IMG/VR virus record: IMGVR_UViG_3300036546_000318
Length of the DNA stretch: 39,705 nt
Strand: one strand, 5' to 3'
Origin: a virus
Each line of letters starts with the position of its first letter. The first letter of the stretch is position 1. Shown piece after piece: positions 1-39,705 of this stretch. Under the pieces are notes generated by a model that was not told the origin of the DNA, did no database searches, and saw only the letters and a list, made by a program, of their open reading frames with translations. The position numbers and the translations under genes are program-made.

Positions 1-127
1 GTGCGCGGCGCGATCGACATCGGCGAAGACGTCTTCGCCGCTCCGAGCGGCACTGTCCAGGCCCTGCCCACCGCCGCCGGCGACTACATCAAAGTCGGCG
101 TGGCCCTCGAGGCCGCTGCCGAAGACG
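1..127. repeat. Terminal overlap, copy 1 (identical to 39579-39705)
   Basis: Base-by-base comparison of the first 127 nt with the last 127 nt shows no mismatch. Confidence 0.95.
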
Positions 128-14660: not shown

Positions 14661-17165
14661 ATGGCATCCATGAATGAACGAGTGCAAGAGCTCATCAACT
14701 CTGTACAGACCTTTAACAACCAGGCGTCGCTGCTGTTGGCGGCCGTGGGACAGGGGCAGCTGGATCCCGAGAAGATCCAGGAGCAGATCCAGACAGCCAC
14801 CCAGTCGGCGATCGACGCCGTACTGGCCCAGCTCGACGGATATGACGCAACCACCATTCTGCAGCGACAGGATATGTTGAAGCTGGCGCAGGACATCCGC
14901 AACGTGACCGACGACGAGAAGTTTTTCTTCGAGTTCTTCCGCCGCCCGTTCTCGTTTGCCGACCAGATCGAAGTCGGCAGCGTTGTCACTGTGGCGGGCG
15001 ACGAATCCGTGGACTGCGCAGACACCTCCCTGCTGGAGGTCGGGCAGGAATACGTTATCTGCTCGGGAGACCTCCGCGAGACCGTGACTGTCGAGGCCGT
15101 ATTGACCTCCACCCGGTTCCGCGCCACGTCCGAGGTGTCCGCATCATACTCCGGAGCCACGCTGAAAAGGACATCCGCCCAACTCGACGGACAGTCTACC
15201 CGCTTTGCTCCCGGAGACATCTACTACGGCGGCAAGTTTGCGCTTGGCCTGGCCGATGTGGACAAGGCTATCCTCATTCGCCGCGGGGCTGTCGGAGAGC
15301 TGTCGGTCTACTTCCAGGACGCAACCCACGAATCTTGGACGCTGGCTCCCTGGGAATGGGTGCGGACCAATGAGGACGGTACACAGGATGTCGAATACCG
15401 ACTTCCAGCTCGCGGTGATTTTGATATCAAGATCGTGAACGAGTCCGACGTTGAAGTCGTGACTCAGTATATCGTTGGCGTGCACCAGGACACCGGCCTG
15501 CTGGGCGACCACCATCCGCCCGTCAAGCCCACCAACGTCTCTCCGGCCGCCGGGGCCATCGACCTGCAGGAAACCCCGACGCTGACCGGCTCTGTTTACA
15601 GTCACCCGCTCGGAACGTCGCAAGGCGCTCTGCAGGTTCGCGTCTACAGCGACGCGGACAGCTATGCGGAAGCGATCTACGACTCTGGCGAGCAGCCCGC
15701 CGGGTCCAGCTTCAAGCTCCCCGCGGGAATCCTTTCCGTAGGCGGCACGTTCAAGTGGGAGATTCGCTACAAAGACAGTCAGGGCGCATGGTCCCCCTGG
15801 TCGGATATGACCGCGTTCGATACTGCGGCTTCGTTTGTCTACATCGAGACGCCGACCCTCACCAACCCTGGCAACGGCGCAACGGACATTCCTGAGCAGC
15901 CGACCCTGACCAGCTCCCCGTTCACTGTGTCCGGCGGCTCTGACAACCACGTCGGATCCAGGTGGATGATCCGTGAAGCCGGAGGCTCCTACGACACCCC
16001 CGTTTACGACTCCGGCAGCTCGCTCGACTTGGAGTCTCACGTGGTTCCCGCCGGCAACCTGCAGGACGGTGAAGTCACATACTACGCCAAGGTCCAGCAC
16101 GAAGGTGAAACGCTTGGCGCTTCAGAGTGGTCCTCGGAGATCAGCTTTACCACCAAGGACCTGTTTGCGGTGATCGTCGGCATTGCCCAGGTGGCTTCCG
16201 GCGGCGGCGCAGGAACGTGGCAGCGCGTCGACGAAGACGGAAACAACAAGACTACCGACACCGCATACTTCAACAACCATCCGACCTACGCAGGGATTCA
16301 GGACGCCACCATCGACGGGCAGGCCATGGTCCAGATTCCCAAGTTCTACTACAAGGTCGCGCAGGCCCCCGCCGGCAGCGACCAAGCTGGCAAGAAGTGC
16401 TGGTGGATCTCCGATCAGCCCGCCGCAGGCTTTGAGCTGCACCCCGCATTCATGGACGGCGGAGTAGAGATCGACCGCTTTTACGTGGGTAAATACGAAG
16501 GCACCGATGACGCGGGAACCAAGGTCGGCTCCGCTGCCGGCGTTTCCCCTCTTGTGTCTGTCGACTTCACGACCATGCACTCCCGTTGCGCCGCCAGGAA
16601 TACCGACGGAGTTGAGGGGTTCCACATGTGGAACATCCACGAACTCAGCGCCATTCAGATGTTGGCGCTGATCGAGCTCGGCACGCCCGATGCCCAGTCG
16701 GCCATTTCCGCCGGCAACACGAACAGCTCTTCAGCGGTTAACACCGGCGCGTCCGGAGCAGTTTGGCGCGGGATCCACGAGCTGTGGGGGAACGTATGGG
16801 GCGCGGTTGACGGCTTTAAGACCGACACCAGCAACCGCTTGGAAGTCTTCGACCGCCTTGGCAACGAAACCTACATCAACACCGGGACGGTCATCACGAC
16901 CAGCGGGTGGACCACGTCCATGCTCGAAGCCTCTGGCGCAGATTGGGACTTTGCCAGCATGTTCGCTGCGGCCAATGTGGACAGCACTGAAGGCAACGGC
17001 ACTTTTGCCGATTACTGGCAGTCGAACTCCGCCGGCAGTGAATATGTCTGCTACCACGGCGGCAGCTGGGGCAGCGGCTCGCCCGCGGGCTTGTTCTCCT
17101 TGCTCTTGCACGCCGTCGCTTCGACCTCGTACGCGGACCGCGGCTGCCGCCTCGCCAAACGGTAA
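14661..17165 (+). CDS. Tail fibre / receptor-binding protein, DGR target 1 (C-terminal FGE-sulfatase/C-type-lectin-like domain ending in VR1)
   Basis: ATG at 14661 after RBS ggagaaggaga. It contains two ~100-aa tandem domains, and the C-terminus ...CYHGGSWGSGSPAGLFSLLLHAVASTSYADRGCRLAKR is encoded by VR1. Confidence 0.85.
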   Translation: MASMNERVQELINSVQTFNNQASLLLAAVGQGQLDPEKIQEQIQTATQSAIDAVLAQLDGYDATTILQRQDMLKLAQDIRNVTDDEKFFFEFFRRPFSFADQIEVGSVVTVAGDESVDCADTSLLEVGQEYVICSGDLRETVTVEAVLTSTRFRATSEVSASYSGATLKRTSAQLDGQSTRFAPGDIYYGGKFALGLADVDKAILIRRGAVGELSVYFQDATHESWTLAPWEWVRTNEDGTQDVEYRLPARGDFDIKIVNESDVEVVTQYIVGVHQDTGLLGDHHPPVKPTNVSPAAGAIDLQETPTLTGSVYSHPLGTSQGALQVRVYSDADSYAEAIYDSGEQPAGSSFKLPAGILSVGGTFKWEIRYKDSQGAWSPWSDMTAFDTAASFVYIETPTLTNPGNGATDIPEQPTLTSSPFTVSGGSDNHVGSRWMIREAGGSYDTPVYDSGSSLDLESHVVPAGNLQDGEVTYYAKVQHEGETLGASEWSSEISFTTKDLFAVIVGIAQVASGGGAGTWQRVDEDGNNKTTDTAYFNNHPTYAGIQDATIDGQAMVQIPKFYYKVAQAPAGSDQAGKKCWWISDQPAAGFELHPAFMDGGVEIDRFYVGKYEGTDDAGTKVGSAAGVSPLVSVDFTTMHSRCAARNTDGVEGFHMWNIHELSAIQMLALIELGTPDAQSAISAGNTNSSSAVNTGASGAVWRGIHELWGNVWGAVDGFKTDTSNRLEVFDRLGNETYINTGTVITTSGWTTSMLEASGADWDFASMFAAANVDSTEGNGTFADYWQSNSAGSEYVCYHGGSWGSGSPAGLFSLLLHAVASTSYADRGCRLAKR
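16206..16549 (+). repeat. Dispersed direct repeat, copy A (about 96.5% identical to 23138-23481)
   Basis: Manual alignment at a constant offset of 6932 nt gives 12 mismatches in 344 nt and no gaps. Confidence 0.9.
17058..17155 (+). repeat. DGR variable repeat VR1
   Basis: Gap-free alignment to TR 17889-17986 shows 18 differences. Seventeen are at TR adenines; one is a T-to-G difference at 17140. Confidence 0.9.
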
Positions 17166-17193
17166 ACTGAAACCTGCAACCTGAAACACTGAA

Positions 17194-17215
17194 GGTCCCC
17201 GCGAGAGCGGGGGCC
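17194..17215 (+). promoter_or_regulatory. Hairpin downstream of VR1 (9-bp stem with one G.T pair, GAGA tetraloop)
   Basis: ggtccccgc-gaga-gcgggggcc. The loop starts 38 nt after the stop codon, and an equivalent structure follows VR2. Confidence 0.7.
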
Positions 17216-17231
17216 ATAAAGGAGATACACT

Positions 17232-17531
17232 ATGAGTCTCGGACAGACTATTTCGTGGGGCCCTGTGGAAGATCTGAATCTGGACGCATTCAACTACAGC
17301 GTGCCCGAGGCGGACCATCGCCAACGCGTCAGGGTTTATTCCGTCCCCACTGACGTCGACGCCGGCGGCTACTTCGTCGCCGTGTCTGCGCCCTGGGACC
17401 CAGTCGTGGTCCCCCCCAGCAGGGTGAAGGACACCGCGCTGCTGGTTGAGTACGACCTTGACCCCGACGGAACCTTCCAGGTCAAGACCATGCTGCCGCA
17501 GATCAAGCGGGCAATGCAGGTGCCCTATTGA
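17232..17531 (+). CDS. Hypothetical protein between VR1 and avd
   Basis: 99 aa with RBS aaaggag. Its stop overlaps the avd start. No motif was recognised. Confidence 0.55.
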   Translation: MSLGQTISWGPVEDLNLDAFNYSVPEADHRQRVRVYSVPTDVDAGGYFVAVSAPWDPVVVPPSRVKDTALLVEYDLDPDGTFQVKTMLPQIKRAMQVPY

Positions 17532-17872
17532 GCCTGATGGACGGACTGAAGATCCTGGCCAAGATGGAGGAGCTTGACGCATACGCCCACAAGGCCATGC
17601 TTCAGTTTCCGAAATATGAACGCCATGTGCTGTGCGCGGCCATTCGCGAGACTTCCGCGGGGATTATCCGTTTGGTCGTGCGCTGCGCAAAGCGCTACCA
17701 CAAAAAGACCTCGCTTCAGGATTTGGACATTGAAGTCGAATACCTGAGAACTCTTGTGAGGAAGGCTCATGCGCTGGGCTACATCAACGTCCATCGCTAT
17801 GAAGTGTGGTCTCGCCATATTGACGAAGTGGGGCGCATGGTCGGGGGCTGGATCAAGCATGTAAAATCTTAG
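17528..17872 (+). CDS. avd: DGR accessory variability determinant (Avd, four-helix-bundle protein)
   Basis: About 111-114 aa, starting at TTG 17528 or ATG 17537. It is basic and helical, and the pattern AMLQFPKYERHVLCAAIRETSAGIIRLVVRCAKR...LGYI is typical of the Avd / 23S rRNA-IVS four-helix-bundle family. It lies immediately upstream of TR. Confidence 0.8.
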   Translation: MSLMDGLKILAKMEELDAYAHKAMLQFPKYERHVLCAAIRETSAGIIRLVVRCAKRYHKKTSLQDLDIEVEYLRTLVRKAHALGYINVHRYEVWSRHIDEVGRMVGGWIKHVKS

Positions 17873-17888
17873 GGCAGGCACCTGTTAC

Positions 17889-17986
17889 GGCGGCAACTGG
17901 AGCAACGGCTCGAACGCGGGCTTGTTCAACTTGAACTTGAACAACGTCGCTTCGAACTCGAACACGAACATCGGCTGCCGCCTCGC
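17889..17986 (+). repeat. DGR template repeat (TR)
   Basis: 98 nt containing 10 AAC codons (23 adenines) in the reading frame of the VRs. The invariant 3' end ggctgccgcctcgc is shared with both VRs. Weaker homology (ctgttac) extends to ~17882, with a 3-nt gap relative to the VRs. Confidence 0.9.
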
Positions 17987-18159: not shown

Positions 18160-19230
18160 GTGCCGAAAACACATGGCGACCTTTGGAAACAGATCATCTC
18201 ATTCGACACGCTCTGCGGAGCCTTTAACCAGGCCCGCCTCGGAAAACGCTACACGCCTGAAGCACTACGGTTCGCCAGCCGACTTGAAGAAAATCTGATC
18301 AATATCCAGAACCACCTGATTTGGAAGACATGGTCTCCGGGTAAATGGAGGGAGTTCTGGGTTTACGACCCGAAGTGGAGACAGATTCAGGCGCCGCCCT
18401 TCTACGATCGCGTTGTCCACCATGCGCTTGTGAGCGTTGTTGAGCCTCTTTTTGAGCGCAAGTTTATTCACGACTCGTATGCCTGTCGGCGCGGTAAGGG
18501 CACTCACGCCGCCGTGTACCGCCTTCAGTCTTTCTTGCGACGCACGCGGCGGCACTGGCCGCGGGTTTACGTCGTCAAGGCCGACATCTCGAAATACTTT
18601 CCATCCATAAATCACTCCAGACTGGAGCAACAGCTCGGCAGAACCCTGCGCGACCAGGACGCCTTATGGCTGTGTAGCAAAATCATACGCGAAAACGGAT
18701 ATGAAAGGCGGGGCATTCCTGTGGGCGCCCTTACTTCGCAGCTTTTTGCCAACATTTACCTGAACGAGCTGGACCACTTCGTGAAGGATGAACTTGGAGT
18801 AAAGCACTATGTCCGGTACATGGATGACTTTGTTTTTCTTGGCCCGGACAAGGCCCGCTTGCGGCGGCTACTTTCCGTCATCGAGGAAAAGCTCGTCATG
18901 GATTTGCGGCTTGCCTTGAACCCAAAGACCTGCATTTTCCCCGCATCAAGAGGTGTGGACTTTGCCGGGTATCGCACTTGGGCCACCCACATAAAGCCTC
19001 GAAAAAAGAACGTCACAAGAATGCGCAAGCGGCTCACGCGCATGGCTGATCTTTACGCCCAGGGCCGCGCATCCCTTGAGGATGTCCGCGCAAGGGTGAT
19101 GTCGTTTATTGGATACATGAAACACTGCTCTGGCCACGTGACGACCCAAAGAGTTCTTCAGGAGATCGTTTTGACCAGGGAGAACAAGGCGCAGGAACAA
19201 GAGCCTGCGCCAAGGAGGTGGAAGTTATGA
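18160..19230 (+). CDS. DGR reverse transcriptase
   Basis: GTG start after RBS gaggag. Motifs: ADISKYFPSINH, IPVGALTSQLFANIYL (DGR-type SQ motif) and YVRYMDDFVFLG (YxDD). It is adjacent to avd and TR. Confidence 0.9.
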   Translation: MPKTHGDLWKQIISFDTLCGAFNQARLGKRYTPEALRFASRLEENLINIQNHLIWKTWSPGKWREFWVYDPKWRQIQAPPFYDRVVHHALVSVVEPLFERKFIHDSYACRRGKGTHAAVYRLQSFLRRTRRHWPRVYVVKADISKYFPSINHSRLEQQLGRTLRDQDALWLCSKIIRENGYERRGIPVGALTSQLFANIYLNELDHFVKDELGVKHYVRYMDDFVFLGPDKARLRRLLSVIEEKLVMDLRLALNPKTCIFPASRGVDFAGYRTWATHIKPRKKNVTRMRKRLTRMADLYAQGRASLEDVRARVMSFIGYMKHCSGHVTTQRVLQEIVLTRENKAQEQEPAPRRWKL

Positions 19231-20033
19231 ACAGTCCTCTTGCATGGCTTGGCGGGAAGTCTCGTCTAGCCAAGAAAATCGTCCCGATGTTGCCTCCTCA
19301 TGAACACTATGGAGAGCCGTTTGCCGGGGCCGGGTGGATATTCTTCCGCAAGGCCCCGTCTCGAGTCGAGTCTTTGAATGACATCAACTCGGATCTGGTG
19401 TCCTTTTATAGGGTGCTCCAGAACCACCTGGAAGAGTTTTGCCGGCAATTCCGTTGGCTGCTCTCTTCAAGGGAAATCTTTGAAGACTTCAACCGCCAGA
19501 GAGATGCCGGCGGGCTGACGGACATCCAAAGAGCTGCTCGGTTCTACTATGTTCAGCGGCAGGCTTTTGGGGGAAAGGTTTATGGCCAGTCGTTCGGGGT
19601 GGACCGGTCCAGTCCCCCGCGGATCAATCTCCTGCGCATCGAGGAGGAGCTGTCCGCAGTTCATCTCAGGCTTACCGGCGTCACTCTGGAAAACCTACCC
19701 TGGCACCGGTATCTCGAAAAATATGACGGGAAAGAGACGCTCTTCTACCTCGATCCTCCATACTATGGCTGTGAGTCCGATTACGGGAAAGATATATTCA
19801 CCAGGGGCGACTTTGACAGGCTTGCGGAGCGCCTTGCGAAGATCCAGGGCAAGTTCCTCCTCAGCCTGAACGACACCCCGGAGGTGAGAGATATCTTCGG
19901 AGGCTTTTTCGTTGAAGGAACCACTACCAGATACACGGTTAACGGAGCCAATCCGCGCACAGTTGGCGAGGTTCTAGTGATGAACTACAAGCCTTCTGCC
20001 GGACTACTGGATCTGATTGAGAACAAGAGCTAA
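19227..20033 (+). CDS. dam: DNA N6-adenine methyltransferase (Dam/D12 class)
   Basis: ATG at 19227 follows RBS aaggagg and overlaps the RT stop (ATGA). Motifs: PLAWLGGKS, EPFAGAG and FYLDPPYY. Confidence 0.85.
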   Translation: MNSPLAWLGGKSRLAKKIVPMLPPHEHYGEPFAGAGWIFFRKAPSRVESLNDINSDLVSFYRVLQNHLEEFCRQFRWLLSSREIFEDFNRQRDAGGLTDIQRAARFYYVQRQAFGGKVYGQSFGVDRSSPPRINLLRIEEELSAVHLRLTGVTLENLPWHRYLEKYDGKETLFYLDPPYYGCESDYGKDIFTRGDFDRLAERLAKIQGKFLLSLNDTPEVRDIFGGFFVEGTTTRYTVNGANPRTVGEVLVMNYKPSAGLLDLIENKS

Positions 20034-21071: not shown

Positions 21072-21371
21072 ATGAAAACAAATCTTCCGCGTCAAGGCCG
21101 TATCGTCGGTTGGCTGAAGATGCAGGGCGCAACCCTGGGAGATTTGGCAGACCATCTGGGCGTGTCCGTTGGCCACACCAGCAAGATCTGCAACTCCGAA
21201 ACGGCCCCCACGTCCATCCGGGAAAAGATGGAGTCTTACAGGGCTCCCACTGGCGAGCGTATCCCAGTCGAGCTGCTGCCCGTCGGCAAAGACAGAAAGC
21301 GCGGGCCCGAGAAAGGCTGGCTTGACAGACTGAAGGCGCAGGCCGCGGCCGGCCAATCCATGAGCGCATAG
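21072..21371 (+). CDS. Cro-like HTH regulator
   Basis: 99 aa with HTH ATLGDLADHLGVSVGHTSKICN. It is the first gene of the rightward early operon, opposite the repressor. Confidence 0.6.
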   Translation: MKTNLPRQGRIVGWLKMQGATLGDLADHLGVSVGHTSKICNSETAPTSIREKMESYRAPTGERIPVELLPVGKDRKRGPEKGWLDRLKAQAAAGQSMSA

Positions 21372-21433
21372 TTTTCTCATGATTCGCTGATGCAATCTTT
21401 TTTCGAAACCTTCCACGATAAAAACGGAGAAAA

Positions 21434-21910
21434 ATGACCATGTCGATAGACCCGTCCACCCATCGGAGCCTTGTAGACCTCTTGTACGAGGTCGCCCACC
21501 GCGCTCCATCTGGAAAATCATTCACGCAGATCGCGGAGCTCATGAACAAGCCGTACTCGACTCTGGCCAGCGAGCTGAACGCCGGGATCGACACCCACAA
21601 GTTCGGGGCCGGGGATCTTCTTTTGCTTATGGAGCTTGCCGAGAGCGACGCCCCTGTCGACTTTCTGGCGCAAAAGCGTGGCGGCGTTTTTGTGAAGATG
21701 CCTCGCATCAAGGCCAAAGGGCCCATCGACCAGGCGTCCATTAAGGCTGTTAAGGAGTTTGGCGAACTCATGGCCGCGTATGGCCAGGCGCTTGAAGACG
21801 GAAAGCTCAAAAGCCACGAGCGCAAGGAAGTCCTCAAGGAAGGCTATGAAGCCATCGAAGCCGTGATGGCCCTGTTGCGCCACGTAGAAGATATGGAGAT
21901 CTCGGAATGA
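21434..21910 (+). CDS. CII-like regulatory protein (phage 186 CII/CP76 family-like)
   Basis: 158 aa. Motifs: SFTQIAELMNKPYSTLASELN....HKFGAGDLLLLMELAESDAPVDFLA and ALEDGKL...E. It follows cro. Confidence 0.45.
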   Translation: MTMSIDPSTHRSLVDLLYEVAHRAPSGKSFTQIAELMNKPYSTLASELNAGIDTHKFGAGDLLLLMELAESDAPVDFLAQKRGGVFVKMPRIKAKGPIDQASIKAVKEFGELMAAYGQALEDGKLKSHERKEVLKEGYEAIEAVMALLRHVEDMEISE

Positions 21911-22515
21911 GCTCGGCATGGATCCAGACACAGAGCGGCCAACAGTTCTTTCCTTTTGATCCCTTTCGCAACGAATACAGGATCGAGGACATAGCTCATG
22001 CGCTTGGGAATATATGTCGGTTCGCCGGGCACACCAAAGAGTTCTACAGTGTTGCCCAGCATTGCGTCTTGGTCTCGGAAAACGTCCTGCCGGAGTTCTC
22101 CAAGTGGGGGCTTCTCCATGATGCGGCCGAAGCGTACTTCGGGGACCTTCCGAGCCCAATCAAGTCCATCATGCCGGAATACCACGCCGTAGAACATCAA
22201 ACGGCAGCGCTTATTGCTGACGCGTTCGACATAACGCTCGACCCCGAGATGGAACTGGCAGTCAAGATGGTAGACAGGCTCGTTTTTTGGGGAGAGGTCG
22301 CGCAGCTGATGCAGCCTATTCACCCCGACCTCCGCCACCAGATGAAAGAGGTCGGCATCGGCGACCAGGGCCCGGACATCAAAATCACCCCCTTGCCCCC
22401 CGCCCAGGCCTCAGCGCTTTTCCTGAATCGGTTTCAGGAGCTCTGGCTCGACAAGAACAAGGAGAGCCGCGATGAAGACGCTCTTGGCTTTATGGAAAAC
22501 CAGAACCGAACTTGA
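21907..22515 (+). CDS. HD-domain phosphohydrolase (YfbR-like 5'-nucleotidase type)
   Basis: Motifs RIEDIAHALGNICRFAGH, SVAQHCV and LLHDAAEAYFGDLPSP. Confidence 0.7.
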   Translation: MSSAWIQTQSGQQFFPFDPFRNEYRIEDIAHALGNICRFAGHTKEFYSVAQHCVLVSENVLPEFSKWGLLHDAAEAYFGDLPSPIKSIMPEYHAVEHQTAALIADAFDITLDPEMELAVKMVDRLVFWGEVAQLMQPIHPDLRHQMKEVGIGDQGPDIKITPLPPAQASALFLNRFQELWLDKNKESRDEDALGFMENQNRT

Positions 22516-22690
22516 ACGGCTTTCTTGCCAGCCCGAGCTCCTGCCGAGCGAAAAGGCCGCGCTTCGCGGCGCGAGAGGGACTTTGAAGTTTATCGCCGAA
22601 CGGCTGGAAGAAAGGGAAGCCAGGGACAATGAACCAGACTGGAGAGAAGCCCAACTGCCGAACGGAGATCGAGAAGAACTTGCGAGGTGA
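22472..22690 (+). CDS. Hypothetical small protein
   Basis: 72 aa with RBS aaggagag upstream. It overlaps the 3' end of the HD gene in another frame. Confidence 0.4.
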   Translation: MKTLLALWKTRTELERLSCQPELLPSEKAALRGARGTLKFIAERLEEREARDNEPDWREAQLPNGDREELAR

Positions 22691-22692
22691 CC

Positions 22693-22842
22693 ATGTCGGC
22701 TACTTACGTGACCCTAGGCGCCCTGACCCTGTTTGCAGTGGGGCTGGCGGCAATTCGACTGATGAAAAGGCTCAAGGCCAAAAGACGCGAGACAGGGCTG
22801 TCTTTGGACTTTGAGAAGATGAAAGCAAACGAGCGAATATAG
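22693..22842 (+). CDS. Small single-pass membrane protein (49 aa; below the ORF-track cutoff)
   Basis: Hand translation gives MSATYVTLGALTLFAVGLAAIRLMKRLKAKRRETGLSLDFEKMKANERI. It fills the gap between neighbouring genes exactly. Confidence 0.4.
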   Translation: MSATYVTLGALTLFAVGLAAIRLMKRLKAKRRETGLSLDFEKMKANERI

Positions 22843-22852
22843 GAGCAAAAAC

Positions 22853-24064
22853 GTGAATACCAATGTTTCCGAAGCAATCAAGCTGGCCCTTGCTGAATTG
22901 GAGAAAGCCGAAGAAAAGCACCCCAACTGGCCATCCGATCCGATTCACGCGGCGGCAATAGTGGCCGAAGAGGCTGGAGAGCTGATCCAAGCGTCACTGG
23001 ACACCACCTATTCCGGCGGAAGCCAAGACAGGATGCGCGCCGAGGCATCTCAGGTGGCTGCTATGGGGCTTCGATTCCTTGCAAACCTCTCTACCCCAGG
23101 CCTTCGCGAACCTCACGTTGTCGGAGTTTCGTTCGACGGCGCAGGAACGTGGCAGCGCGTCGACGAAGACGGAAACAACAAGACCACCGAAACCGCATAC
23201 TTCAACAACCATCCGACCTACGCAGAGATTCAGGACACCACCATTGACGAGCAGGACATGGTCCAGATCCCCAAGTTCTACTACAAGGTCGAGCAGGCCC
23301 CCGCCGGCAGCGACCAGGCTGGCAAGAAGTGCTGGTGGATCTCCGATCAGCCCGCCGCAGGCTTTGAGCTGCATCCCGCATTCATGGACGGCGGAGTAGA
23401 GATCGACCGCTTTTACGTGGGCAAATACGAAGGCACCGATGACGCGGGAACCAAGGTCGGCTCCGCTGCCGGCGTTTCCCCCTTGGGCGGGCTTGATTTT
23501 TGCGAGACGAAAGAGCGCTGCGAAGCAAGAGGCGCAGGATGGGGGATGTGGGACATCTGGCAGCTTGGTGCCATCCAGATGCTGGCACTGATCGAGCTTG
23601 GCACGCCCGACGTCCAGTCTGTCGTCTCGAGAGGAAACGTGAACGGGTCGGGGCTACGGAAGACAGGGAGCACTGGAGCAGTCTGGCGCGGGATCCACGA
23701 GCTGTGGGGCAACTCTCTTCACATGGTGGACGGACTCGTTGCCAACCCTGAGAACCGGCTCTTTGTTCGTTCCTCTGAAAACCAGAAAGCATGGTTGGAT
23801 GTAGGCGCCGAAGCATGCGCAAGATCGGGATGGATAAGCGCATTCGAAAGCAAGGTTCCCGCCGCATTTGTCCCGAGCGAAACAGGGAGCGATGATGAAG
23901 TCGTGGGCGACTATTACTGGCCTGCATACAAGGGCGAGGAAAATATCTGCTACCACGGCGGCCACTGGAGCTACGGCTCGTACGCGGGCTTGTTCTACTT
24001 GGACTTGCACTACGTCGCTTCGTACTCGAACACGAACCTCGGCTGCCGCCTCGCCAAACGGTAA
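22853..24064 (+). CDS. DGR target 2: MazG-like (EExxE) N-terminal domain fused to an FGE/C-type-lectin-like domain ending in VR2
   Basis: GTG start 7 nt after aggag. Residues 1-95 (HPNWPSDPIHAAAIVAEEAGELIQA...EASQVAAMGLRFL) look like small phage MazG-type pyrophosphohydrolases. From codon 96 the gene is homologous to the fibre C-terminus, and its 3' end is VR2. Confidence 0.8.
   Translation: MNTNVSEAIKLALAELEKAEEKHPNWPSDPIHAAAIVAEEAGELIQASLDTTYSGGSQDRMRAEASQVAAMGLRFLANLSTPGLREPHVVGVSFDGAGTWQRVDEDGNNKTTETAYFNNHPTYAEIQDTTIDEQDMVQIPKFYYKVEQAPAGSDQAGKKCWWISDQPAAGFELHPAFMDGGVEIDRFYVGKYEGTDDAGTKVGSAAGVSPLGGLDFCETKERCEARGAGWGMWDIWQLGAIQMLALIELGTPDVQSVVSRGNVNGSGLRKTGSTGAVWRGIHELWGNSLHMVDGLVANPENRLFVRSSENQKAWLDVGAEACARSGWISAFESKVPAAFVPSETGSDDEVVGDYYWPAYKGEENICYHGGHWSYGSYAGLFYLDLHYVASYSNTNLGCRLAKR
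23138..23481 (+). repeat. Dispersed direct repeat, copy B (about 96.5% identical to 16206-16549)
   Basis: See copy A. Homology continues more weakly through to VR2. Confidence 0.9.
23957..24054 (+). repeat. DGR variable repeat VR2
   Basis: Gap-free alignment to TR shows 9 differences, all at TR adenines and all at the first base of a codon. Eight of them fall in AAC codons and the ninth is ATC to CTC. Confidence 0.9.
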
Positions 24065-24093
24065 ACTGAGCCCTGCAACCTGCATTCTGAACA

Positions 24094-24111
24094 GGATCGC
24101 GAAAGCGAGCC
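24094..24111 (+). promoter_or_regulatory. Hairpin downstream of VR2 (7-position stem with one mismatch, GAAA tetraloop)
   Basis: ggatcgc-gaaa-gcgagcc. The loop starts 37 nt after the stop codon. Confidence 0.65.
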
Positions 24112-24129
24112 TATTAGGAGGTTAAGAAA

Positions 24130-24411
24130 ATGAAACATGAAGCCGCCTCTTCGACAGTCGAGATAGTCAAGAACACCATCAAGGAGCTGTTTTCCGATGC
24201 TGCCGACCTGGCTCGTCTCGGGCACAAGGAGCTGCTCACGGGACGCGAGGTTGAACTGATCTACAGCTACCCGTCGTCAACCCAAGAAAAGGATCGGTGC
24301 GCAGGCATCGGGCCCTCGTACATCAAGAGGGGGAAGCGAGTCCTGTATCGTCGTCGGGATCTGGATCAGTATTTCGGCGCTTTGAGAGTGAAAACCAGAG
24401 ACCAGGTGTAA
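24130..24411 (+). CDS. xis: Excisionase-type HTH DNA-binding protein (AlpA/Xis family-like)
   Basis: Strong RBS aggagg. The pattern LLTGREVELIY......GIGPSYIKRGKRVLYRRRDLDQYF matches the excisionase HTH pattern, and the gene is adjacent to int. Confidence 0.65.
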   Translation: MKHEAASSTVEIVKNTIKELFSDAADLARLGHKELLTGREVELIYSYPSSTQEKDRCAGIGPSYIKRGKRVLYRRRDLDQYFGALRVKTRDQV

Positions 24412-25531
24412 TGTCATGACGGAAAGCCGCATCAATACAATCAACGGCCTGCCTCTGGACGTCGGGGCACAGGTGGCTATACCTCTCCGTCACTTCCTCG
24501 TTGGTGTGCCCCATCAGCTTGGCTATCCAATAGAGCGGGACGCCAGAGATGGCCAGCCAGCTCCCGAACGTATGACGAAGGGAGTGGAACACAACCCTGT
24601 GGCGGGAATCATCCACCCCTTTGTTGAACTCCAGCGCGTCCACGGCGCGTCGGAACATGGCGGACGGCTCCGTACGCACGCCGCCGGTGCGCGAAGGAAA
24701 GACGACCTGCCCCGGCGGCGTCGGCTTGCCCATAAACACGCGGCGCAGCTCTCCGGAGATAAAGACAGTCCGGTCCCTTCCAGACTTCGTATCCTGAACC
24801 CGGATCGTCCCCGCGGACAGGTTCACCTGTTCGCCCTTCAGGCTGGCGATCTCTCCAAAGCGCATGCCGGTGTAAAGAGCGGCCACACAGACGCACCAGA
24901 AAGACTTCTGCGGGTCTCTGCAGCGCCTGTAAACCTCTTCAAGCAAGGCCCTTGCTTCATCCGGAGACAGCCATCTTGCGCGGCGGTTGTCGTAGCGTGG
25001 CCACTGGATCCTATCCGTCGGCGCCTTTCCTCTGTAGACACCCCACGCCTCAACCTTGCGGTAGATTCTTCTGATCAGAGAGAGGGCGTGCTCAATGGTT
25101 TTCGGGCTTTTGCCCTGCTCCTGCAGGTCAGCCTTGAACGCTTCCAAATCCAGGGGGGATATATCGCTCAGCATTTTTCCGCCGAGGGCATCCTTGAGAA
25201 GCGAGTTCCATCTGGACAACGTCTTCTGCGGGCTCTTGGTGTTCGCCAGGCAGTGGTTGTCGTAATAAAGAGCCCACGCCTCCTTCAGCGTCAAGCTGTC
25301 CTCTCCGCGCACCTGAGGCTGCTCGCCAAGCCGAACCTGGTTGAGCAGCTCTGTGCGCTTCTGCGCGGCGTAAGCCGCATCGACACCATCGGAGCGCCAT
25401 CCAATTTTGTGCCGCTCTTTCTTGCCTTTGTTCTTTATTGTGACGTAGTAGCAGACGTCTGGACGGCCTTGAAACCGTCGGGTGGTAGACGCGTAAAAAT
25501 AGACCCCTGTGAACTTCTTGACCCGCTCCAA
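24323..25531 (-). CDS. int: Tyrosine integrase
   Basis: 402 aa with an apparent TTG start. Catalytic signature: TGMRFGEIASL, HSLRHTFGSW, GH and ERYSHL. It is adjacent to the tRNA-derived attP. Confidence 0.9.
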   Translation of the reverse strand: MERVKKFTGVYFYASTTRRFQGRPDVCYYVTIKNKGKKERHKIGWRSDGVDAAYAAQKRTELLNQVRLGEQPQVRGEDSLTLKEAWALYYDNHCLANTKSPQKTLSRWNSLLKDALGGKMLSDISPLDLEAFKADLQEQGKSPKTIEHALSLIRRIYRKVEAWGVYRGKAPTDRIQWPRYDNRRARWLSPDEARALLEEVYRRCRDPQKSFWCVCVAALYTGMRFGEIASLKGEQVNLSAGTIRVQDTKSGRDRTVFISGELRRVFMGKPTPPGQVVFPSRTGGVRTEPSAMFRRAVDALEFNKGVDDSRHRVVFHSLRHTFGSWLAISGVPLYWIAKLMGHTNEEVTERYSHLCPDVQRQAVDCIDAAFRHDITPGLWFSLSKRRNTDPDPDDDTGLASPS

Positions 25532-25534
25532 TTT

Positions 25535-25583
25535 TTTGCCCCTTTTTTGCCCCCATACAACGTATTTGCCCCCGTTTTGCCCC
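25535..25583 (+). repeat. TTTGCCCC direct repeats, left arm (2 pairs with 11-bp phasing); candidate integrase arm-type sites
   Basis: Copies start at 25535, 25546, 25565 and 25576. They lie between the int start codon and the tRNA-derived core. Confidence 0.6.
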
Positions 25584-25688
25584 TTTGTGCGGCAACATGC
25601 GGAAGCGTGAGGAAATTCAAAACCTCTTTAATACTGGGGACTAGCGGCGTCAAGCAGGGTGTGGAGGCTTGCGGCAAAGGTGTAGTAA

Positions 25689-25738
25689 TCGGGCTCATAA
25701 CCCGAAGGTCAGAGGTTCAAATCCTCTCCCCGCTACCA
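25689..25738 (+). other. attP core: 3' portion of a tRNA-Met(CAU) gene (anticodon arm through CCA)
   Basis: tcggg-ctCATaa-cccga anticodon arm, variable loop aggtc, T arm agagg-ttcaaat-cctct, acceptor 3' strand ccccgct, then A and CCA. No matching D arm or 5' acceptor strand lies upstream. Confidence 0.75.
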
Positions 25739-25747
25739 AGAATATCA

Positions 25748-25789
25748 AGGACTTACGGACATAGTTTCCGTAAGTCCTTTTTCTGTTTT
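25748..25789 (+). terminator. Rho-independent terminator following the tRNA fragment
   Basis: 12-bp stem aggacttacgga/tccgtaagtcct with a 7-nt loop, followed by ttttctgtttt. Confidence 0.8.
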
Positions 25790-39374: not shown

Positions 39375-39705
39375 ATGAGCTACAACGATTATGGAATCGG
39401 GTCCCACCCCGCAGCTGAAGATATCGTCGAAGGACGTCGCGTGGAGTTCAACTCCAGCGGCCAGGTGGTTCACGCCCCGGCCACCCGTCTTGGTGTCGGG
39501 GTTTCCCGCATCTCGCAAAAGACCGGCGACCCCATCGGAGTCGCGTACTGGAACAAGCCGGGCACGCATCACCTTGAAGTGCGCGGCGCGATCGACATCG
39601 GCGAAGACGTCTTCGCCGCTCCGAGCGGCACTGTCCAGGCCCTGCCCACCGCCGCCGGCGACTACATCAAAGTCGGCGTGGCCCTCGAGGCCGCTGCCGA
39701 AGACG
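39375..39705 (+). CDS. Head decoration/cement protein (DUF2190-like), 5' part; continues at 128-186 after collapsing the overlap
   Basis: ATG at 39375 after aggag, with no stop before the window end. It encodes MSYNDYGIGSHPAAEDIVEGRRVEFNSSGQVVHA... Confidence 0.6.
   Translation, partial: MSYNDYGIGSHPAAEDIVEGRRVEFNSSGQVVHAPATRLGVGVSRISQKTGDPIGVAYWNKPGTHHLEVRGAIDIGEDVFAAPSGTVQALPTAAGDYIKVGVALEAAAED
39579..39705. repeat. Terminal overlap, copy 2 (identical to 1-127)
   Basis: See copy 1. Confidence 0.95.

What the first reader, a model, noticed from the sequence alone, without database searches (positions are those of the whole stretch)
22853..24064. Second, remote DGR target is a MazG-like::lectin-fold fusion in the early/lysogeny operon
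Seen in the sequence:
- VR2 (23957-24054) matches the same TR with 9 differences, all at adenines.
- It has the same invariant 3' end and the same downstream flank as VR1, so the single RT/TR can plausibly service it in trans, 4.7 kb away.
- The host gene is not structural by context. It follows cro, a CII-like gene, an HD hydrolase gene and two tiny ORFs, and it precedes xis.
- Its first 95 residues carry an EExxE-type motif (IVAEEAGELIQA ... EASQVAAMGLRFL) resembling small stand-alone phage MazG-type pyrophosphohydrolases.
- No signal peptide or fibre-like N-terminus is visible.

Inference: DGR targets are normally receptor-binding or surface-displayed proteins, so a hypervariable ligand-binding fold fused to a nucleotide-hydrolase-like domain and expressed with early genes would be unusual. 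Possible readings are an intracellular diversified binder (for example one that recruits or regulates the enzyme, or targets variable host factors), an alternative virion protein, or a chimeric spare cassette.
Basis: partly seen in the sequence, partly recalled or inferred. Interest (0 to 1): 0.85.

Follow-up and report, generated by a model that had tools for sequence, protein, structure and literature searches.

The report
Second, non-tail target of phage DGR
A temperate Desulfovibrio phage uses its single mutagenic retroelement to hypervary its tail-fibre tip and also a second, apparently non-virion protein encoded among its early genes, so targeted hypermutation in phages may serve more than host recognition.

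Summary

- **VR2 match.** VR2 (23955-24054) differs from the TR (17887-17986) at 9 positions, all TR adenines. It shares an identical 29-nt 3' end and flank with VR1, and a hairpin at the same offset.
- **VR2 is active.** A 99.8%-identical genome from another sample differs at 36 of 15,127 nt. Of these, 17 lie in VR1 and 13 in VR2, and all 13 are at TR adenines.
- **The protein.** The 403-aa protein is an ~80-aa three-helix N-domain fused to a complete FGE-type C-type-lectin module (TaqVP, E 9e-16). That module is paralogous to the tail-fibre tip.
- **The N-domain.** It belongs to a very large, unannotated family of small phage proteins; the members whose context I examined sit in early regions. 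MazG likeness holds only at fold and motif level. Sequence and profile tests fail.
- **Selection and context.** Both domains are under purifying selection. The gene sits in the cro-cII-HD...xis operon, three genes from the tRNA-Met attachment site.
- **Precedents.** The fusion is confined to this phage lineage. Stand-alone modules of the same kind occur in early regions of other temperate phages, and distal second VRs were noted in 2025.

This is a new variant of a known kind; its function is unknown.

The parts
22853..24064 (+). Second DGR target gene: 403 aa, GTG start, AGGAG 7 nt upstream, 10 nt after the stop of the 51-aa ORF
   Evidence: ORF list. The same start is called in relatives L001 and L075. 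dN/dS versus L001 is 0.10-0.22.
22853..23092 (+). N-domain (aa 1-80): three helices with conserved D29, H32, E39, E40, G42, E43, Y53, E64, R74. Member of a very large unannotated family of small phage proteins; NTP-pyrophosphohydrolase-like at fold level only
   Evidence: Homologues are all 72-158 aa. 4,425 representative clusters match. AF2 pLDDT 88.7. Foldseek results. Conserved columns.
23114..24061 (+). Complete FGE-type C-type-lectin variable-protein module (aa 88-403), paralogous to the C-terminal module of the tail protein
   Evidence: AF2 pLDDT above 90. Foldseek hits: TaqVP 5vf4 at 9e-16, then PvdO, Mtd and EgtB. phrog_5302 'tail protein' at 8e-41.
23134..23481 (+). 348-nt tract 96% identical to 16202-16549 of the tail-protein gene (concerted evolution or gene conversion); the following ~460 nt are only ~60-70% identical
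   Evidence: Paralogues are as similar as orthologues in three genomes. The L002 recombinant crosses over in this tract.
23955..24054 (+). VR2: 100 nt, 9 differences from the TR, all at TR adenines. It has 13 variable codons (10 AAC, plus AGC, ACG and ATC), giving about 3.7e13 possible peptides
   Evidence: Population variation.
24041..24069 (+). IMH-type element: G+C-rich 3' end of the VR plus VR-specific flank, identical to 17142-17170 and divergent from the TR after CCTCGC
24093..24112 (+). Hairpin GGATCGC-GAAA-GCGAGCC, at the same offset after the VR as the VR1 hairpin 17194-17215
   Evidence: z -1.47 here; z -2.85 for VR1. Conserved in L001, L072 and L075.
17887..17986 (+). Template repeat (TR) that serves both VRs
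   Evidence: Identical in L075.
17528..17872 (+). avd (accessory variability determinant)
   Evidence: phrog_3206 at 1.4e-37. bAvd Pfam family on the L001 orthologue.
18160..19230 (+). DGR reverse transcriptase; overlaps the start of a Dam-like methyltransferase gene (19218-20033)
   Evidence: RVT_1 on the orthologue. Methyltransferase match in PADLOC, MTase_II at 4e-76.
14661..17165 (+). First (cis) target: 834-aa tail protein whose last 100 coding nt before the flank are VR1 (17056-17155)
21072..22842 (+). Upstream genes of the same tightly packed rightward operon: cro-like, CII, HD 5'-deoxynucleotidase, a 72-aa ORF and a 51-aa ORF with a transmembrane helix
   Evidence: No terminator-like site on the + strand between them.
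24130..25738 (.). Downstream: 93-aa excisionase-like ORF (+), integrase (-) and tRNA-Met, which marks the attachment site and prophage end
   Evidence: Homology to the Desulfovibrio sp. 7SRBS1 chromosome ends at 25788.

Best explanation
**What is shown.**
- The 403-aa gene is a real, currently active second target of the phage's single diversity-generating retroelement.
- TR RNA is copied by the RT/Avd complex with adenine-specific errors. The cDNA replaces either VR, because both carry the same recognition signals.
- Those signals are an identical G+C-rich end plus flank, and a downstream hairpin with a 4-nt loop.
- VR2 lies 6 kb from the TR, so homing there is in trans.

**What the product is.**
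- It has no signal peptide or transmembrane segment, so it is probably cytoplasmic.
- An ~80-aa three-helix domain is joined by a short linker to a complete FGE-type C-type-lectin module. The 13 variable codons of that module form the ligand-binding face.
- The three-helix domain comes from an abundant family of small phage proteins and has an invariant acidic cluster (D29, E39, E40, E43, E64).
- The lectin module is a paralogue of the tail-fibre tip. Recombination keeps its first ~116 codons nearly identical to the fibre copy.

**What is inferred.**
- The gene is translationally packed into the cro-cII-HD...xis early operon, and its N-domain relatives are early-region proteins. I therefore think it acts off the virion, early after infection or induction.
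- In this reading it is a hypervariable intracellular binder. The lectin domain would recognise a variable partner, such as a host or rival-phage factor. The N-domain would supply either a nucleotide-hydrolase-type activity or simply oligomerisation for avidity.
For: **Target status.**
- 9/9 TR-VR2 mismatches are at adenines.
- The 29-mer IMH plus flank is identical in both VRs and unique to them.
- Hairpins sit at equal offsets.
- The RT, Avd and TR are present.

**Activity.**
- L075 differs from the window at 36 of 15,127 nt. Seventeen are in VR1 and 13 in VR2, all 13 at TR adenines. The TR is identical.
- Three cluster members are identical to the window protein outside the 13 TR-A codons (apart from the annotated initiator residue) but differ at 9-10 of them.

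**Protein anatomy.**
- AF2 and Foldseek support both domains.
- Conserved columns are shown.

**Functional constraint.**
- dN/dS is 0.10 for the N-domain and 0.22 for the scaffold. The VR shows 0 synonymous and 14 nonsynonymous differences.
- The fusion is intact in a cultured Desulfovibrio genome, several metagenomes, and the rearranged locus L002.

**Off-virion reading.**
- The gene order and 10-nt intergenic gap place it in the early operon.
- The two stand-alone N-domain homologues whose gene context I examined lie in early regions: Mu-like after Gam, and next to ParB and integrase.
- All 61 IMG/VR loci encode short ORFs, with no lectin or RT gene nearby.
- N-domain fusions to a dNMP-kinase-like P-loop domain and to DUF4406 exist, and an HD gene is adjacent in 3 other phages.
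- Stand-alone lectin modules of the same family sit in early operons upstream of integrase in other temperate phages. One is verified as a DGR target (13 of 14 mismatches at A).
- A 2025 report describes distal second VRs near counter-defence genes.
Against: - Nothing here shows when the gene is transcribed or where the protein ends up.
- The lectin module is the same module that forms the tail-fibre tip. In another phage (L069) it is a stand-alone gene inside the baseplate/tail cluster, so a virion role cannot be excluded.
- The enzymatic reading of the N-domain is weak. No significant sequence or profile match to MazG families was found.
- Foldseek E-values to solved NTP pyrophosphohydrolases are all above 0.6.
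- The family-invariant E40 is valine in two fusion relatives, P0023 and P0151.
- No N-domain gene lies next to the stand-alone early-region lectin modules, so the two parts are not a recurrent functional pair.
Confidence: 0.6

Rival explanations
1. It is an alternative receptor-binding protein or virion-associated adhesin. The lectin module is displayed on the particle, perhaps by co-assembling with the fibre through the shared, homogenised first ~116 residues. The N-domain would act only as an adaptor or multimeriser. DGR variation at VR2 would then widen host range in parallel with VR1.
For: - The module is paralogous to the fibre tip and best matches phrog_5302 'tail protein'.
- A 348-nt tract is kept 92-96% identical to the fibre copy in three genomes.
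- The same module occurs as a stand-alone gene in the tail cluster of L069.
- VR2 diversifies at a rate similar to VR1 (13 versus 17 differences).
Against: - The gene is in the early operon, 5.7 kb past the end of the tail-protein gene and separated from it by the DGR, the methylase gene and the immunity region.
- The N-domain shows no similarity to fibre, collar or baseplate domains. In the contexts examined, its homologues are small early-region proteins.
- Three other phage lineages also place such modules among recombination and early genes.
Confidence: 0.22
2. It works mainly at the DNA level, as a spare lectin cassette. It would be a second, independently diversified scaffold that can be moved into the tail-fibre gene, or vice versa, by homologous recombination. 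The arms would be the 348-nt 5' tract and the conserved VR/IMH 3' end. The protein itself would matter little.
For: - High-identity arms flank a divergent ~460-nt core.
- Locus L002 is exactly such a recombinant: fusion 5' part joined to the fibre-type 3' part, then accessory ORF, avd and TR.
- Paralogues are as similar as orthologues in the tract.
Against: - The N-domain in the fusion is under strong purifying selection (12 synonymous versus 4 nonsynonymous changes, dN/dS 0.10). The divergent scaffold is also constrained (0.22).
- The reading frame and start site are conserved in all relatives.
- A silent cassette would not need an in-frame N-terminal domain with a ribosome-binding site.
Confidence: 0.1
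3. Bystander diversification. A duplicated lectin module carried its IMH and hairpin along, so the DGR mutates it whether or not the variation is useful. The protein would function through its constant parts only.
For: DGR homing needs only the cis signals, and these are identical at both VRs. AAC-based TR design avoids stop codons, so variation is tolerated.
Against: - The recognition signals are conserved at VR2 in all relatives over dS ~0.2.
- Remote early-region lectin targets recur in independent phage lineages.
Confidence: 0.08

Closest known systems
Bordetella phage BPP-1 DGR (Mtd / Avd / TR / Brt)
   Same: Adenine-specific TR-to-VR mutagenic retrohoming. The VR sits at the C-terminus of a C-type-lectin fold. 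IMH at the VR end, IMH* in the TR and a downstream hairpin are present. The avd-TR-RT order matches. Mtd structures are among the Foldseek hits.
   Different: BPP-1 has one target, a tail-fibre protein next to the cassette. Here a second target lies 6 kb away in the early operon and has a non-fibre N-terminal domain.
TaqVP, Thermus aquaticus DGR variable protein (PDB 5VF4; PMC6328139)
   Same: Best structural match (E 9e-16). It is an FGE-type CLec domain with inserts, a C-terminal VR, monomer-sized, with no signal peptide described.
   Different: TaqVP is cellular. Its N-terminal ~110 residues wrap the lectin domain and are not a separate three-helix domain. Sequence identity is only ~15-17%.
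Distal second VRs in human-gut temperate phages (PMC12629997, 2025)
   Same: [quoted passage not shown]
   Different: Those are mainly Bacteroidota prophages, described in one paragraph and one figure, with no domain analysis. Proximity to a methyltransferase is noted there. Here the methyltransferase sits next to the RT, and VR2 follows an HD nucleotidase. No N-domain fusion is reported there.
Cyanobacterial remote variable proteins with N-terminal kinase or orthocaspase grafted to C-terminal CLec (PMC7517822)
   Same: A mostly cytosolic enzyme::CLec architecture. Remote VRs are served in trans. CLec paralogues are dispersed by recombination.
   Different: Those are cellular regulatory proteins, not phage early proteins, and the enzyme domains differ.
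Viral DGR targets with a CotH-like kinase domain (PC_00012; 10.1101/2020.04.01.020958)
   Same: A noted exception to 'viral DGR targets are structural': an enzyme-like domain in the same protein as the VR.
   Different: Those proteins are very large (about 2,300 aa), and the domain and context differ.
Small phage MazG-like / all-alpha NTP pyrophosphohydrolases (e.g. cyanophage S-2L MazG 7ODY, Bacillus MazG 5IE9, AF0060 2P06)
   Same: Size of ~80-100 aa, helical, with an EExGE helix aligned in register with MazG motif 1. These are the commonest annotated structural neighbours. Occasional links to nucleotide-metabolism genes occur.
   Different: No significant sequence or profile similarity. Three helices rather than the usual four or more. 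The second motif is E-x-x-Q, not E-x-x-D. No activity is known for any member.

Membership tests
DGR variable protein (target) | VR nearly identical to a TR, with differences confined to TR adenines | tested here: met
   9/9 differences at adenines over 100 nt. The chance is about 3e-6 given 24% A.
DGR variable protein (target) | Cognate DGR reverse transcriptase, Avd and TR in the same genome | tested here: met
   phrog_3206 Avd at 1.4e-37. RVT_1 and bAvd on orthologues. The TR lies between them.
DGR variable protein (target) | IMH at the 3' end of the VR that differs from the IMH* of the TR | tested here: met
   The 29-mer is identical in VR1 and VR2 and found nowhere else. The TR diverges after CCTCGC.
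DGR variable protein (target) | Hairpin/cruciform with a short loop just downstream of the VR | tested here: inconclusive
   Hairpins with GAGA and GAAA loops sit at the same offset and are conserved in relatives. The VR2 stem is no more stable than 12 of 200 shuffles. The role of this element is known from BPP-1 (my own knowledge) and was not tested here.
DGR variable protein (target) | VR forms part of a C-type-lectin fold at the C-terminus | tested here: met
   Model pLDDT above 90 for residues 89-403. Foldseek hits: TaqVP at 9e-16, Mtd at 4e-4.
DGR variable protein (target) | Observed diversification in natural populations restricted to TR-A sites | tested here: met
   13 of 13 VR2 differences between near-identical genomes are at TR adenines. 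Seven distinct VR2 peptides occur among 8 full-length sequences.
MazG / all-alpha NTP pyrophosphohydrolase superfamily | Significant sequence or profile match to MazG, MazG-like, PRA-PH or dimeric dUTPase models | tested here: not met
   Pfam gives nothing significant. PRA-PH is hit by 2 of 22 and 4 of 97 family members at E ~0.1. NCBIfam gives nothing. PDB profile searches give nothing. hhalign against a YpjD-type MazG profile gives probability 7.8%.
MazG / all-alpha NTP pyrophosphohydrolase superfamily | All-alpha bundle fold superposable on solved members | tested here: inconclusive
   Three-helix model, pLDDT 88.7. PDB hits AF0060, HisE, MazG, DCTPP1 and S-2L MazG all have E above 0.6 and TM 0.4-0.6. 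BFVD hits annotated as NTP pyrophosphohydrolase reach TM 0.70/0.72 and rmsd 1.7 A at E 0.03.
MazG / all-alpha NTP pyrophosphohydrolase superfamily | EExxE ... ExxD metal-binding motifs | tested here: inconclusive
   E39, E40, E43 and E64 (plus D29) are invariant or nearly so across 97 diverse members. The second motif is E-x-x-Q/H. E40 is V in P0023 and P0151.
MazG / all-alpha NTP pyrophosphohydrolase superfamily | Nucleoside triphosphate pyrophosphohydrolase activity | not testable with these tools
   This needs purified protein and a nucleotide panel.
Phage tail fibre / receptor-binding protein (Mtd-type target) | Encoded in the tail morphogenesis module | tested here: not met
   The gene lies between the cro-cII-HD genes and xis-int. 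The tail module ends at 17165.
Phage tail fibre / receptor-binding protein (Mtd-type target) | N-terminal fibre, collar or baseplate-attachment domain | tested here: not met
   The N-domain matches only PHROGs of unknown function and small stand-alone proteins. It has no Mtd_N or Ig domain, unlike other hits.
Phage tail fibre / receptor-binding protein (Mtd-type target) | Physically present in virions | not testable with these tools
   This needs virion proteomics.

The most novel reading that the evidence does not exclude
Temperate phages of several lineages carry a class of DGR-diversified, antibody-like cytoplasmic binders in their early operons. In this lineage the binder is covalently coupled to a nucleotide-hydrolase-type domain. 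These binders would recognise fast-evolving intracellular partners, such as host defence proteins or rival prophage factors, during the first minutes of infection or induction. Phage DGRs would then diversify counter-defence or host-takeover functions as well as adsorption.
Probability: 0.3. Interest if true: 0.85.

Novelty: new variant of a known kind. Interest (0 to 1): 0.62.

Why it matters
Phage DGRs are understood almost entirely as host-range devices acting on tail fibres. This is a clean, population-verified case in which the same retroelement also diversifies a protein that by every available criterion is not a tail part. That protein is encoded and apparently expressed with early and lysogeny-switch genes.

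The case comes with useful material:
- a cultured host genome (Desulfovibrio sp. 7SRBS1);
- natural allele series at both VRs;
- a natural recombinant (L002);
- related stand-alone early-region targets in other phages.

Together these make the question 'what do non-structural phage DGR targets bind?' experimentally approachable. The work also brings to light a very large protein family (4,425 clusters at 50% identity) that has no database model.

Tried and rejected
**Searches on the full protein and N-domain that found nothing useful.**
- Pfam, NCBIfam and PADLOC scans gave nothing significant.
- PDB sequence searches with the protein and with two family profiles gave only chance hits: CnrR, an ATP synthase subunit and antibodies.
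- All 55 GenBank phage homologues of the N-domain are annotated 'hypothetical protein'.

**Attempts to test the MazG link.**
- hhalign of the N-domain family against B. subtilis YpjD and E. coli MazG gave probabilities of 17.5% and 0.6%. The YpjD sequence was later validated at 97% identity to a PF03819 protein.
- hhalign against a YpjD-family profile gave 7.8% probability.
- I tried to build a more diverse phage MazG profile by scanning viral contigs with the YpjD alignment. No relatives were found.

**Other ideas tested and dropped.**
- Rosetta-stone idea, that stand-alone early-region lectin modules have an N-domain gene next to them: rejected, as none is present in L068-L071.
- A third VR in the window: none.
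- Assembly chimera as the origin of the fusion: rejected. The same fusion occurs in a 4.55-Mb Desulfovibrio contig and several independent metagenomes.
- Dead target: rejected.
- Rfam scan of the whole window: only the tRNA.
- Promoter and terminator scans were uninformative.
Full report
**1.

The window is a complete circular phage genome. Its first 127 nt are repeated exactly at its end. The DGR core is as follows:
- avd at 17528-17872 (phrog_3206, 1.4e-37)
- a 100-nt TR at 17887-17986
- the RT gene at 18160-19230

In register with the TR are two variable repeats:
- VR1 (17056-17155) ends the 834-aa tail protein. It has 18 mismatches to the TR, 17 at adenines.
- VR2 (23955-24054) ends the 403-aa ORF 22853-24064. 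It has 9 mismatches, all at adenines.

With 24% A in the TR, 9 of 9 at adenines has a chance of about 3e-6.

Both VRs, but not the TR, continue into the same sequence. The 29-mer GGCTGCCGCCTCGCCAAACGGTAAACTGA occurs exactly twice in 39.7 kb and never in shuffles. Both VRs are followed at the same offset (+39 to +60) by a hairpin with a four-base loop, GAGA or GAAA. These hairpins are conserved in relatives. This is the IMH-plus-hairpin arrangement known from BPP-1 (my own knowledge of that system). VR2 starts 4.7 kb after the RT stop codon and 6.0 kb after the TR.

**2. VR2 is an active target**

The protein database holds a 90%-identity cluster of 11 sequences. Three full-length members are identical to the window protein at every residue outside the 13 TR-adenine codons, apart from the annotated initiator residue. 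They differ at 9-10 of those 13 codons. Eight full-length sequences carry seven different VR2 peptides.

At the DNA level, contig L075 comes from a different sample. It matches the window over 15,127 nt with 36 mismatches:
- 17 in VR1 (16 at TR adenines)
- 13 in VR2 (all at TR adenines)
- 6 elsewhere

The TR is identical in the two genomes. One RT/TR diversifies both loci, at comparable rates.

**3. What the protein is**

*The lectin module.* AlphaFold2 with an 81-sequence alignment gives pLDDT above 90 for residues 89-403. Foldseek against the PDB finds the DGR variable protein TaqVP at E 9e-16, followed by PvdO, Mtd and EgtB. This is an FGE-type C-type-lectin fold, as described for TaqVP (PMC6328139).

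The module is complete. It starts with the conserved beta-strand VVGVSF..GAGTW that begins the same module in many other proteins. It is a paralogue of the tail protein's C-terminal module:
- 348 nt (23134-23481) are 96% identical to 16202-16549.
- The next ~460 nt are only 60-70% identical.
- The VR and its flank are again conserved.

In three genomes the paralogous tracts are as similar to each other as orthologues are. This points to continuing gene conversion.

*The N-domain.* Residues 1-80 are a separate three-helix domain, with pLDDT 88.7 when modelled alone. Its homologues are all small proteins:
- 21 hits of 72-158 aa in the 5.8-billion-protein set.
- 4,425 clusters at 50% identity, almost all of the 150 listed being 80-170 aa.
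- 61 IMG/VR loci with a median ORF of 98 aa, none with a lectin or RT gene nearby.

The family has no Pfam or NCBIfam model. It is annotated 'hypothetical' in all 55 GenBank phages that carry it. The two stand-alone members whose gene context I looked up lie in early regions. One sits after Gam in a Mu-like phage. The other lies next to ParB and an integrase.

**4. Is the N-domain MazG-like?**

Evidence in favour:
- An acidic constellation (D29, E39, E40, E43, E64), together with G42 and R74, is invariant or nearly so across 97 diverse members.
- hhalign places EEaGEL in register with the first MazG motif.
- The annotated structural neighbours are mostly NTP pyrophosphohydrolases. These include AF0060, HisE, MazG, DCTPP1 and S-2L MazG in the PDB.
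- A Pantoea phage 'NTP pyrophosphohydrolase' in BFVD reaches TM 0.70/0.72 and 1.7 A rmsd.
- A few family members are fused to a dNMP-kinase-like P-loop domain or to DUF4406.
- An HD nucleotidase gene is adjacent in three other phages. In the window the HD gene lies two genes upstream.

Evidence against:
- No sequence or profile comparison is significant.
- PDB Foldseek E-values are all above 0.6.
- The domain has three helices rather than four or more.
- The second motif lacks its aspartate.
- The invariant E40 is valine in two fusion relatives.

My conclusion is that the domain may work like a small all-alpha NTP pyrophosphohydrolase, but membership is not established. An oligomerisation role is equally compatible with the data.

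**5. Context and lineage**

The gene follows a cro-like gene, CII (PF06892), an HD 5'-deoxynucleotidase (phrog_318), a 72-aa ORF and a 51-aa ORF with a transmembrane helix. The gaps are overlapping or minimal, and a ribosome-binding site lies 7 nt before the GTG start. No terminator-like site interrupts this + strand run.

Downstream come a 93-aa excisionase-like ORF (HTH_17, only E 0.015) and a convergent integrase. In the Desulfovibrio sp. 7SRBS1 chromosome, homology to the window stops just after tRNA-Met. The phage therefore integrates there, and the fusion is the third gene from that prophage end. The cro operon should be repressed in lysogens, so expression is expected after infection or induction. 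This is an inference.

The fusion is conserved in several places:
- L001 (89% amino-acid identity, same synteny)
- the cultured genome (93%)
- L075 and L076
- L002

dN/dS against L001 is 0.10 for the N-domain and 0.22 for the lectin scaffold. The VR shows 0 synonymous and 14 nonsynonymous changes. Outside this lineage, no other N-domain::lectin fusion was found.

**6. Relatives that inform function**

*L002.* This locus is a natural recombinant. The fusion's N-domain and 5' lectin tract are joined to the fibre-type 3' lectin part. The accessory ORF, avd and the TR follow. CII and half of the HD gene are deleted, and chromosomal genes lie alongside. This shows that the two lectin loci do recombine and that the fusion tolerates either scaffold.

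*Other temperate phages.* Their DGR RTs, where seen (L069, L071), are 52-56% identical to this one. The same module occurs there as a stand-alone ~325-aa gene in one of two places:
- in the tail cluster, directly before avd (L069);
- in early operons, among cI/cro/cII, RecT/YqaJ, RdgC, SSB and DNA methylase genes; in L071 it lies upstream of the integrase (L068, L070, L071).

In L071 the early-region copy matches a TR 4.6 kb away on the opposite strand, with 13 of 14 mismatches at adenines. Early-region DGR targets are therefore recurrent.

*Literature.*
- Viral targets are mostly structural, with a CotH-kinase exception (10.1101/2020.04.01.020958).
- Cytosolic enzyme::CLec remote targets exist in cyanobacteria (PMC7517822).
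- Four gut prophage species have a distal second VR near counter-defence genes (PMC12629997).

**7. Interpretation**

Shown: this is an active trans target of the DGR. It is a two-domain protein without export signals, under purifying selection, and positioned in the early operon.

Inferred (about 0.5 given the rest): it acts off the virion as a hypervariable binder, with the N-domain supplying activity or avidity.

Rivals:
- an alternative virion adhesin (0.22);
- a recombination cassette for the fibre (0.10), which may coexist with a protein function;
- bystander diversification (0.08).

**8. Verdict**

The finding is real and well supported. I classify it as a new variant of a known kind: a remote DGR target with a new N-terminal partner in a phage early operon. 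It is interesting mainly because it is a tractable, verified example of non-structural DGR targeting in a phage.

Noticed in passing
window 1-127 and 39579-39705: The first 127 nt are repeated exactly at the end of the window. The window is therefore a circularly closed (or terminally redundant) complete phage genome of about 39.6 kb.
   Followed up: yes
window 25658-25788; L072 12806-12938: tRNA-Met lies just beyond the integrase gene. Homology to the Desulfovibrio sp. 7SRBS1 chromosome ends about 50 nt after it, so this is the attachment site and the host genus is Desulfovibrio. ARAGORN calls an 81-nt gene, but Rfam matches only 25679-25735.
   Followed up: partly
L002 8891-12200: This recombinant, partly deleted relative sits next to chromosomal genes (NrdD, chemoreceptor, histidine kinase). 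The fusion's N-domain is joined to a fibre-type lectin part, then accessory ORF, avd and TR. CII and the 5' half of the HD gene are missing, and a MarR-type gene replaces the cI-like repressor. It could be a prophage remnant that keeps a DGR with the fusion as its cis target. The contig ends in the TR region, so this cannot be decided.
   Followed up: partly
L076 1-260: This 3.4-kb metagenome contig carries a second copy of the VR2-type end and flank, joined directly to the middle of the 72-aa ORF upstream of the fusion gene. This is either a tandem duplication or an assembly artefact at the hypervariable repeat.
   Followed up: no
L071 14360-17493: Two reverse-transcriptase genes (56% and 47% identical to the window RT) flank avd on the minus strand, next to an integrase gene. 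The only VR seen in the locus is the early-region stand-alone lectin gene 4.6 kb away.
   Followed up: partly
window 17140: The single non-adenine TR-VR1 mismatch (TR T, window G) is private to the window. The near-identical genome L075 has T there.
   Followed up: yes
window 19218-20033: A Dam-like orphan methyltransferase gene overlaps the end of the RT gene by 13 nt. It is conserved in L001 and L075 and so is probably co-transcribed with the DGR.
   Followed up: no
window 22853-23092 and P0001-P0312: The N-domain family (motif DxIHAAAIVaEEaGEL...Y...EA.QtAAMa.RFL) has 4,425 clusters at 50% identity but no Pfam, NCBIfam or functional PHROG annotation. It also occurs in jumbo Erwinia and Dickeya phages as part of ~190-215-aa proteins.
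   Followed up: partly
P0023 and P0151, residue 40 of the fusion: The glutamate that is invariant in 97 family representatives (E40) is valine in two fusion relatives. This hints that the putative metal site may be dispensable in the fusion context.
   Followed up: no
window 22472-22842: The 72-aa ORF and the 51-aa ORF with a transmembrane helix, directly upstream, stay with the fusion gene even in the rearranged locus L002, where neighbouring genes are lost. Neither ORF matches any family.
   Followed up: no
window 17232-17531: A 99-aa ORF lies between the tail-protein target and avd (88 aa in L002 and L075). It has no match in any library and may be a DGR accessory gene.
   Followed up: no
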